From the NCBI RefSeq assembly GCF_964355755.1, contig NC_092671.1, positions 29,456,104 to 29,520,103 on the forward strand: a DNA stretch of 64,000 bases. Reading direction: 5' to 3'. How positions within the stretch are numbered: the stretch's first letter is position 1; the number at the start of each line of letters is the position of its first letter. Source of the stretch: Antedon mediterranea (taxonomy: Eukaryota > Animalia > Echinodermata). Shown one piece after another: positions 4,689 through 4,730 of this stretch. The notes under the pieces were generated by a model. That model worked only from the letters and a program-made list of their open reading frames with translations. It made no database searches and had not been told where the DNA came from. The position numbers and the translations under genes are program-made.

Positions 4689-4730
<42 letters not shown>
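4689..4730 (+). other. 42-bp ectopic copy of the 28S R2 target / helix 69 region in the spacer
   Basis: AGCGCGGGTAAACGGCGGGAGTAACTATGACTCTCTTAAGGT identical to intact 28S 12824-12865. Confidence 0.95.

What the first reader, a model, noticed from the sequence alone, without database searches (positions are those of the whole stretch)
4689..4730. Every intergenic spacer carries a perfect 42-bp copy of the R2 target site: candidate decoy
Seen: AGCGCGGGTAAACGGCGGGAGTAACTATGACTCTCTTAAGGT occurs at 4689, 14231, 23705, 33211, 42685, 52131 and 61328. It is identical to 28S -41..+1 around the nick and then diverges (TAGAAATAAGG instead of AGCCAAATGCC). Established: Bombyx R2 protein recognises an upstream motif (about -34..-22) and the TTAAGGT motif at the nick, both inside this copy, and rDNA spacers normally diverge fast. 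Inference: one unmutated copy per unit, bounded almost exactly at the recognition footprint, could titrate or divert R2 protein from the coding site (host defence), with the altered downstream bases impairing priming. Alternatives are a repair donor for cut sites, a helix-69 mimic in the 3' ETS, or a recent R2 by-product swept by concerted evolution. Its co-occurrence with an R2-site insert shows the site is being hit.
Basis: partly seen in the sequence, partly recalled or inferred. Interest (0 to 1): 0.88.

Follow-up and report, generated by a model that had tools for sequence, protein, structure and literature searches.

The report
R2 landing pad in rDNA spacer
All seven ribosomal gene repeats in this window, likely from a feather star, carry just behind the 28S gene an exact 42-base copy of the front half of the R2 jumping gene's landing site, likely a leftover of R2 cutting that R2 is predicted to bind and nick but not fill; whether the host keeps it as a decoy is untested.

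Summary
Observation confirmed: 7 of 7 spacers hold an exact copy of 28S -41..+1, 232-259 bases behind 28S, the only rRNA-gene piece over 12 nt in the spacers tested. It ends at the R2 nick (chance about 0.001-0.002). The site is under attack: unit 1 holds a 578-bp ORF-less insert whose tail matches, by eye, the 3' UTR of a published three-zinc-finger feather-star R2, and a second sample shows a separate 5'-truncated junction. Published A-lineage R2 proteins bind only upstream DNA and need 4 nt of downstream pairing, which the spacer copy lacks, so it is predicted to be bound and nicked but poorly filled. Selection is not shown: the flanks are as invariant as the block, a neutral 42-mer can stay perfect for millions of years, and relatives were not tested. 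Best reading: an R2 cut-and-repair relic swept by concerted evolution (0.55); selected decoy 0.2; safe-break site 0.1. The scan's unchecked notes report similar spacer copies in two other animals; five literature searches found none. In passing: the insert carries a perfect 26-nt antisense copy of downstream 28S.

The parts
4689..4730 (+). Spacer copy of 28S -41..+1 (upstream R2 half-site to the nick), unit 1; holds helix 69 and both Bombyx recognition motifs
14231..14272 (+). Spacer copy, unit 2
23705..23746 (+). Spacer copy, unit 3
33211..33252 (+). Spacer copy, unit 4
42685..42726 (+). Spacer copy, unit 5
52131..52172 (+). Spacer copy, unit 6
61328..61369 (+). Spacer copy, unit 7
12824..12865 (+). 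Native, uninserted 28S target (unit 2; likewise 22298, 31804, 41296, 50724, 59921)
4725..4743 (+). Scar-like right junction: a 7-bp stretch spanning the nick (4725-4731) recurs at 4737-4743
   Evidence: about 0.5% of 100,000 flank shuffles; feature picked after looking
4681..4737 (.). 6-bp inverted repeat (4681-4686 / 4732-4737) closing the block
   Evidence: about 0.5% of shuffles; picked after looking; no pair above 0.5 probability in the RNA ensemble
4746..4773 (+). Run of 27-29 T behind the block in every unit (terminator-like or inverted poly(A) relic; untested)
4548..4637 (+). Array of 7-10 copies of a 9-bp unit in front of the block
2736..3313 (+). 578-bp ORF-less insert at the R2 site of unit 1, replacing 28S -24..-1; SIDE-type non-autonomous R2 derivative made of two related halves
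3227..3313 (+). Insert tail that matches by eye the end of the printed 3' UTR of feather-star R2-1_ABif
2984..3048 (+). Eroded sense copy of 28S -96..-37 (40 of 50 aligned bases) followed by 12 exact bases -36..-25, inside the insert
2929..2954 (-). Perfect 26-nt antisense copy of 28S +109..+134 inside the insert
209..4430 (+). 28S gene of unit 1 (interrupted)

Best explanation
The block is an exact copy of the upstream half of the 28S R2 target, ending at the nick, that was likely made once by R2 cutting and repair, likely spread to all units by ordinary concerted evolution, and is predicted to be bound and nicked but poorly filled by the host's R2. Shown: the sequence, its edges, its place behind 28S, an R2-type insert at the native site, and a second junction in another sample. 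Inferred origin: a copy of 28S that ran off at an R2 nick, or the protein-protected upstream end of an R2 break, was joined into the 3' spacer; the 7-bp duplication and T run at the right edge look like the stuttered joins seen at R2 5' junctions. Inferred present behaviour: an A-lineage R2 protein holds only upstream DNA, so it would load on the copy and nick it, but its RNA tail could pair with one base in register (three after a one-base slip) instead of four or five, so priming would mostly fail. Any protection of 28S would be a side effect, at best about a halving of hits when protein is limiting; repeated nicking with repair from 28S templates could keep the copy perfect without selection.
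For: Right edge within 1 base of the nick; chance 0.0009-0.0018 for a random rRNA piece. Only long rRNA piece in the spacers. R2 activity in this host: insert at the site; its tail matches the printed R2-1_ABif 3' UTR by eye, exact blocks of 8, 6, 10, 12 and 7 nt in the same order; run X8 (another sample of organism A) has a form starting at 3069 joined to intact 28S ending at -1 plus one extra base. Precedent: R2 junctions with 13-28 nt tandem 28S duplications and sea-squirt junctions with long added stretches copied from upstream 28S (PMC3774820); non-28S R1 insertions bring 7-28 bp of upstream 28S with them (PMC2718515); A-clade protein stays bound to the upstream end after both nicks (PMC12180492). 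No sign of block-specific constraint within the array: 0 variable sites in 42 bp, but also 0 in 117, 51 and 71 bp of flank, against 10 in 3,645 bp of 28S and 13 in 2,347 bp of IGS repeats. A neutral 42-mer stays perfect with probability 0.88 at 1 My, 0.53 at 5 My, 0.28 at 10 My at 3e-9 per site per year (rate recalled). Tail pairing -5.5 kcal/mol on 28S against -0.1 on the spacer for 5 nt (RNA:RNA proxy).
Against: The left edge (-41) lies beyond the published ribozyme cut range of -9 to -36, so a plain RNA-head deposit does not fit without later lengthening, while it does fit the A-clade binding range (binding needs -40..-21, mapped in 10-20 bp steps): both edges matching the protein's reach is what selection for a decoy would give. 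What follows the block does not resemble, by eye, the first 400 printed bases of R2-1_ABif or, by alignment, the insert (score 26, shuffle maximum 33), so no element body backs the origin. A cuttable site should tend to be converted away while rare, which makes a neutral sweep harder (inference). Unchecked scan notes of like copies in two other animals would suggest recurrence beyond accident, though the same by-product could recur. The two junction features were chosen after looking.
Confidence: 0.55

Rival explanations
1. Selected decoy: whatever made it, the host keeps one upstream half-site per unit because it soaks up R2 ribonucleoprotein at a place where nicking does no harm to 28S and priming fails.
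For: Both edges match the reach of A-clade R2 proteins, which bind upstream only and stay bound after nicking; downstream pairing that R2Tg strictly needs is missing; host R2 on record has three zinc fingers by eye; 0 of 7 spacer sites filled; in X1 the contig of the full insert reaches 12 bases beyond -41 without a branch, which by length points to a single upstream context (letters not shown); similar copies noted in other animals (unchecked).
Against: No test of conservation in relatives; flanks as invariant as the block; 1 of 7 against 0 of 7 filled sites is not significant (Fisher p = 1); one decoy per unit gives at most about a twofold dilution, and the insert is still abundant in 28S (depth about 5,000 in X1); by Bombyx rules the copy is a full target, not a dead end.
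Confidence: 0.2
2. Domesticated break site: R2 cuts the spacer copy without inserting, and the break starts unequal sister exchange that restores rDNA copy number without damaging a 28S gene.
For: R2 breaks drive rDNA copy recovery in Drosophila (PMC10266012); R2Tg makes priming-independent double-strand breaks; the place just behind 28S is where yeast fork-barrier breaks start rDNA exchange (recalled; a related passage).
Against: No data on breaks, exchange or copy number in this animal; length changes in the window fall in the 9-bp, 5-bp and ~290-bp arrays, and none was seen in the block itself.
Confidence: 0.1
3. Head of an ectopic R2 or SIDE insertion: an element RNA cut upstream in 28S was inserted in the spacer and later lost its body.
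For: R2 RNAs carry up to 36 nt of upstream 28S; ectopic R1 copies carry 7-28 bp of 28S; the insert's inner half starts with 12 exact bases from -36.
Against: 41 bases exceed the known range; the insert's own head is eroded at -24..-1 while the block is perfect; no element body follows.
Confidence: 0.1
4. RNA-level role unrelated to R2: a helix-69 mimic or a processing or termination signal in the 3' external spacer.
For: The helix-69 hairpin folds in the spacer context (pair probabilities 0.86-0.96); a T run follows; X8, guessed to be RNA, holds 0.54 of the sampled words of the region.
Against: Does not explain an end on the nick; overall fold is no better than shuffles (-24.9 against -25.6 +/- 3.4 kcal/mol); X8 being RNA is a guess; transcription of the block was not shown.
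Confidence: 0.04
5. Assembly artefact.
For: Repeats are hard to assemble; the best-matching runs may be the source sample.
Against: Seven units with their own small differences all carry it; X1 holds 0.94 of 35 sampled words of the region, of which about 60 of 411 possible words span a junction (arithmetic).
Confidence: 0.01

Closest known systems
Canonical R2 target in 28S rDNA (RUM -34..-22 and RASIN -6..+1, Wilkinson et al. 2023, PMC10499050; A-clade upstream half-site, Lee et al. 2024, PMC11204384)
   Same: Identical upstream sequence, both motifs, native spacing, +1 base kept.
   Different: Lies outside the gene in the 3' spacer; downstream half absent, so no 4-nt primer pairing for A-lineage R2 and no downstream site for D-lineage proteins.
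28S duplications at R2 5' junctions (Eickbush, Burke, Eickbush 2013, PMC3774820)
   Same: Short upstream 28S copy ending at the nick, followed by stuttered and T-rich added bases.
   Different: Published ones are tandem at the native site, mostly 13-28 nt, and attached to an R2 body; this one is 41 nt, about 1.4 kb away, has no element behind it and is in all 7 units.
Upstream 28S pieces at non-28S R1 insertions (Stage and Eickbush 2009, PMC2718515)
   Same: An rDNA retrotransposon leaves a short 28S piece at a foreign place, ending at its junction.
   Different: Single insertions outside the array with the element attached; 7-28 bp.
R2 SIDEs (Eickbush and Eickbush 2012, PMC3414825), for the unit-1 insert
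   Same: About 0.5 kb, no ORF, at the R2 site, 3' end like the host R2 3' UTR, variable 5' junctions.
   Different: Two related halves, an eroded internal 28S copy, a perfect antisense 28S piece; no HDV-like ribozyme found.
Transposon remnants in rDNA spacers (Bendich and Rogers 2023, PMC10319768; Garcia et al. review PMC10946416; Pokey-IGS exchange PMC3849761)
   Same: Element-derived or element-linked pieces hitchhike to all units by concerted evolution.
   Different: Here the remnant is the element's host target, not the element.

Membership tests
R2 target, D-lineage (Bombyx) rules | Upstream motif at -34..-22 and nick motif at -6..+1 at native spacing | tested here: met
   A scan for the key bases of both motifs finds 13 sites in the window, the 7 spacer copies and 6 intact 28S sites, none on the - strand (rules)
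R2 target, D-lineage (Bombyx) rules | Downstream half-site (+2..+20) for the second subunit | tested here: not met
   Identity ends at +1; footprint
R2 target, A-lineage rules | Upstream half-site covering -40..-1 | tested here: met
   Block spans -41..+1; binding range
R2 target, A-lineage rules | At least 4 nt downstream of the nick that pair with the RNA tail | tested here: not met
   1 of 5 in register, 3 of 5 after a one-base shift; requirement
R2 target (any lineage) | Bound and nicked by the host's R2 protein | not testable with these tools
   Needs biochemistry
R2 5'-junction duplication / ectopic head | Ends at the nick | tested here: met
R2 5'-junction duplication / ectopic head | Length within the ribozyme cut range (9-36 nt) | tested here: not met
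   41 nt upstream of the nick; range
R2 5'-junction duplication / ectopic head | Followed by the 5' end of an R2 or SIDE | tested here: not met
   No likeness to the insert or, by eye, to the first 400 printed bases of R2-1_ABif; other R2 families of the host were not available
Selected decoy site | Conserved against diverging flanks in related species | not tested
   No spacer of a close relative was obtained; word shares of organisms B (0.60) and C (0.23) cannot tell
Selected decoy site | Spacer site stays empty while 28S sites are filled | tested here: inconclusive
Selected decoy site | Lowers the insertion rate into 28S | not testable with these tools
   Needs competition or cell assays
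R2 SIDE (unit-1 insert) | Inserted at the R2 site with a clean 3' junction | tested here: met
   28S resumes at +1 at 3314
R2 SIDE (unit-1 insert) | No coding capacity | tested here: met
   12 stop-to-stop frames of 30 aa or more overlap it, longest 99 aa
R2 SIDE (unit-1 insert) | 3' end identity with the host R2 3' UTR | tested here: met
   By eye only, against the printed R2-1_ABif 3' UTR
R2 SIDE (unit-1 insert) | Independent insertions with variable 5' junctions | tested here: met
   Full form in X1 and X8, truncated form at 3069 in X8
R2 SIDE (unit-1 insert) | 5' HDV-like ribozyme | tested here: inconclusive
   No Rfam ribozyme match at E up to 10; 0 hits with my own descriptor, which had no positive control

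The most novel reading that the evidence does not exclude
Animal rDNA spacers repeatedly capture and keep the upstream half of the R2 target as a cut-but-cannot-insert site tuned to A-lineage R2: a built-in decoy that diverts the element from 28S, and possibly turns its nuclease into a safe trigger for rDNA copy-number repair.
Probability: 0.3. Interest if true: 0.85.

Novelty: new variant of a known kind. Interest (0 to 1): 0.55.

Why it matters
R2 has lived in animal rDNA for hundreds of millions of years and its target cannot change because it is the ribosome's own sequence. A half-target fixed in the spacer is the one sequence-level counter-move open to the host. Even as a neutral relic it is a natural substrate that separates binding and nicking from priming, in a host with an R2 and a non-autonomous partner on record, so the decoy and safe-break ideas become directly testable by comparing feather-star spacers and by simple competition assays. 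It also bears on R2-based gene insertion tools, whose off-target behaviour depends on the same half-site rules.

Tried and rejected
No whole genome is held for the window. Relatives: a lineage-specific 28S-end pattern found 0 metagenome contigs; a broad animal pattern found 3, of which 2 have spacer behind 28S (1,487 and 315 bases), neither holds an rRNA piece of 13 nt or more and neither resembles the window's spacer; too few and too distant to count. Word shares of 20 public runs cannot say whether organisms B and C hold the block; shares under 0.2 were not used. X5 and X13 laid nothing on the insert's second half, which is no proof of absence. No 3' loose end of the insert was listed, but contigs that run past the stretch are not printed, so filling of the spacer site is not excluded. 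Left flank as more 28S (score 19, shuffle mean 18), right flank as downstream 28S (12 against 16) or as insert sequence (26, shuffle maximum 33): rejected. Group I intron or Pokey for the insert: rejected, because 28S -24..-1 is replaced, there is no four-base target duplication, and the tail is R2-like. tRNA-derived SINE: no tRNA in the window. No autonomous element in the window: the only frames of 300 aa or more are six antisense-to-28S frames of 302 aa. A 16-nt motif of the insert's halves was absent from 12 of 16 supplement files of PMC13188248 as held. The 5-bp spacer microsatellite reads as 28S +1..+5 on the - strand, but no upstream motif goes with it: treated as coincidence. Look-alike search of earlier findings by place gave only unrelated rDNA windows, and none on the insert type.

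Full report
Observation. The window is a tandem rDNA array of seven units of about 9.5 kb (7 LSU, 6 SSU, 6 5.8S matches). Identity to 28S ends sharply on both sides. Each spacer copy lies 232-259 bases behind the 28S end, after an array of a 9-bp unit and before a run of 27-29 T. Against all three rRNA genes, both strands, it is the only piece over 12 nt in the spacers of one full unit; shuffled spacers reach 14.

The link to R2 is solid. The copy runs from -41 to +1 of the R2 nick; a random rRNA piece would end that close with chance 0.0009-0.0018. The seventh 28S carries a 578-bp insert that replaces -24..-1 and is followed by +1. It has no ORF (longest stop-to-stop frame 99 aa) and consists of two related halves, an eroded copy of 28S -96..-37 plus 12 exact bases from -36 and an 87-base tail. 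Table S2 of PMC13188248 prints a feather-star R2 (R2-1_ABif) whose 28S flanks read the same by eye as window 2540-2735 and from 3314 on, variable expansion segments included, whereas the printed sea-cucumber and starfish flanks differ; the host is therefore likely Antedon bifida or close kin. The end of that element's printed 3' UTR matches the insert's tail by eye in exact blocks of 8, 6, 10, 12 and 7 bases in the same order. Public contigs confirm the insert: X1 has both halves in one 435-base contig at depth about 5,087; X8, another sample and study of organism A, has the same form (depth 58) and a form truncated at 3069 that is joined to intact 28S ending at -1 with one extra base (depth about 900); X5 and X13 laid nothing (4 runs laid). 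So a SIDE-type parasite of R2 has inserted at least twice. A ribozyme was not recognised (my descriptor had no positive control).

What R2 would do at the spacer copy. By Bombyx rules it is a complete target: both motifs at native spacing, +1 kept; +6..+37 are dispensable (PMC10499050), and a scan for the key bases passes exactly the 13 sites. But the printed start of the R2-1_ABif protein shows three zinc fingers by eye, the A-lineage layout; the paper places echinoderm R2s in the three-finger branch while warning that finger number alone does not define lineage. A-clade N-terminal domains bind only the upstream half-site, with a requirement in -40..-21 mapped in 10-20 bp steps (PMC11204384); the protein stays on upstream DNA after both nicks (PMC12180492); R2Tg strictly needs 3' homology, at least 4 nt in cells, and makes breaks without priming (PMC12222951). 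The spacer offers 1 of 5 bases in register, 3 of 5 after a slip; a 5-nt tail pairs at -0.1 against -5.5 kcal/mol (RNA:RNA proxy). Prediction, by analogy to bird, beetle and turtle proteins: bound, nicked, rarely filled.

Is it selected? Nothing here shows it. The seven units are homogenised throughout: 0 variable sites in the block, but also 0 in 117, 51 and 71 bases of flank, against 10 in 3,645 bases of 28S, 13 in 2,347 of IGS repeats and 3 in 498 of the 5' spacer. With recalled rates of 1e-9 to 1e-8 per site per year a neutral 42-mer stays perfect with probability 0.66-0.96 after 1 My and 0.015-0.66 after 10 My; nicking with repair from 28S would reset the clock (inference). Filled sites, 1 of 7 against 0 of 7, do not differ (p = 1). 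X1's contig of the full insert begins at the equivalent of 2707, 12 bases beyond -41, without a branch, which hints at one upstream context only, but the letters were not shown and contigs drop rare forms. Conservation in relatives, the decisive test, remains open: no genome is held, metagenome scans gave 0 and 3 loci, none with a like spacer, and word shares cannot answer it.

Origin. R2 and R1 are known to scatter short upstream 28S pieces: tandem duplications of 13-28 nt and stuttered additions at R2 5' junctions (PMC3774820), 7-28 bp at ectopic R1 copies (PMC2718515). The right junction looks like such a join: a 7-bp stretch spanning the nick recurs 12 bases on (0.5% of shuffles), and a 6-bp inverted repeat closes the block (0.5%), both chosen after looking. 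Against a plain RNA-head deposit: 41 bases exceed the published 9-36, and no element body follows. A DNA route fits better: copying that runs off at a nicked template, or capture of the protein-protected upstream end. The wording 'cut-and-repair scar' is taken from note e1-9176058.

Novelty. Searches for a spacer copy or decoy of an rDNA retrotransposon target: 15 papers with 4 of 5 terms, none with both 'R2 retrotransposon' and 'decoy'; 0; 0; 8 listed, none on this by title or abstract start; 0; the library lacks most subscription papers, including much older R2 work. The scan's own unchecked notes report R2 half-site arrays in the spacers of two other animals (e1-7814042, e1-9176058) and a copy of another element's target in a third (e1-9964016); I could not test them. 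I file it as a new variant of known R2 target duplications, not as a proven defence system.

Papers seen: PMC3774820 parts 1-5 of 7; PMC5035012 parts 2-3 of 5; PMC3414825 part 1 of 6 and passages; PMC12222951 passages and section 8; PMC13188248 passages, supplement searches and part 15 of 61 of one file (long cells cut at 400 letters, so the full R2-1_ABif sequence, which could bear on the origin of the block's flank and of the insert's halves, was not seen); passages only of PMC10499050, PMC11204384, PMC12180492, PMC2718515, PMC3849761, PMC10266012, PMC13580325, PMC10946416, PMC10257491, PMC10319768. Recalled, from no call: substitution rates, rRNA helix names, the yeast fork-barrier position, author names of cited papers where the tool output did not print them.

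Verdict. Real, R2-linked, mechanistically neat, selection unproven. Interest 0.55; 0.85 if the decoy or safe-break role holds (probability about 0.3).

Noticed in passing
window 2929-2954 (pairs with 3422-3447): The insert carries a perfect 26-nt antisense copy of 28S +109..+134 (longest match in 100 shuffles: 14), while its sense copy of upstream 28S is eroded (40 of 50). In a read-through transcript the helix is predicted at probability 0.995. Either a recent snap-back capture or a kept guide that tethers the SIDE RNA to pre-rRNA near the target; the region is the peptidyl-transferase side of 28S (recalled).
   Followed up: partly
window 2736-3313: Dimeric SIDE-type element, not found among earlier scan notes: halves align over about 190 nt with 112 identical columns of 195, share two predicted hairpins with 1 compensatory change among 26 pairs; no ribozyme recognised. 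Abundant in X1 (depth about 5,000); truncated form dominates in X8 (about 900 against 58).
   Followed up: partly
window 4746-4790: The T run is followed by a stretch that reads on the - strand as polyadenylation-signal hexamers 5-9 bases before an A run, like an inverted poly(A) tail; the block's cut end could have primed copying of such an RNA. Low-complexity sequence, not tested.
   Followed up: no
window 4802-7112 and repeats: The 5-bp spacer microsatellite reads on the - strand as the first five bases downstream of the R2 nick; no upstream motif accompanies it.
   Followed up: partly
unit 3 28S (19770-23455): Five private differences (two 1-bp insertions, three substitutions), two of them 58 and 47 bases upstream of the nick; possibly a decaying unit.
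   Followed up: no
units 1, 5, 6, 7: Unit 1 (the inserted one) lacks 16 bp of 28S; unit 5 lacks 56 bp of ITS1; units 6 and 7 lack one ~284-bp spacer subrepeat.
   Followed up: no
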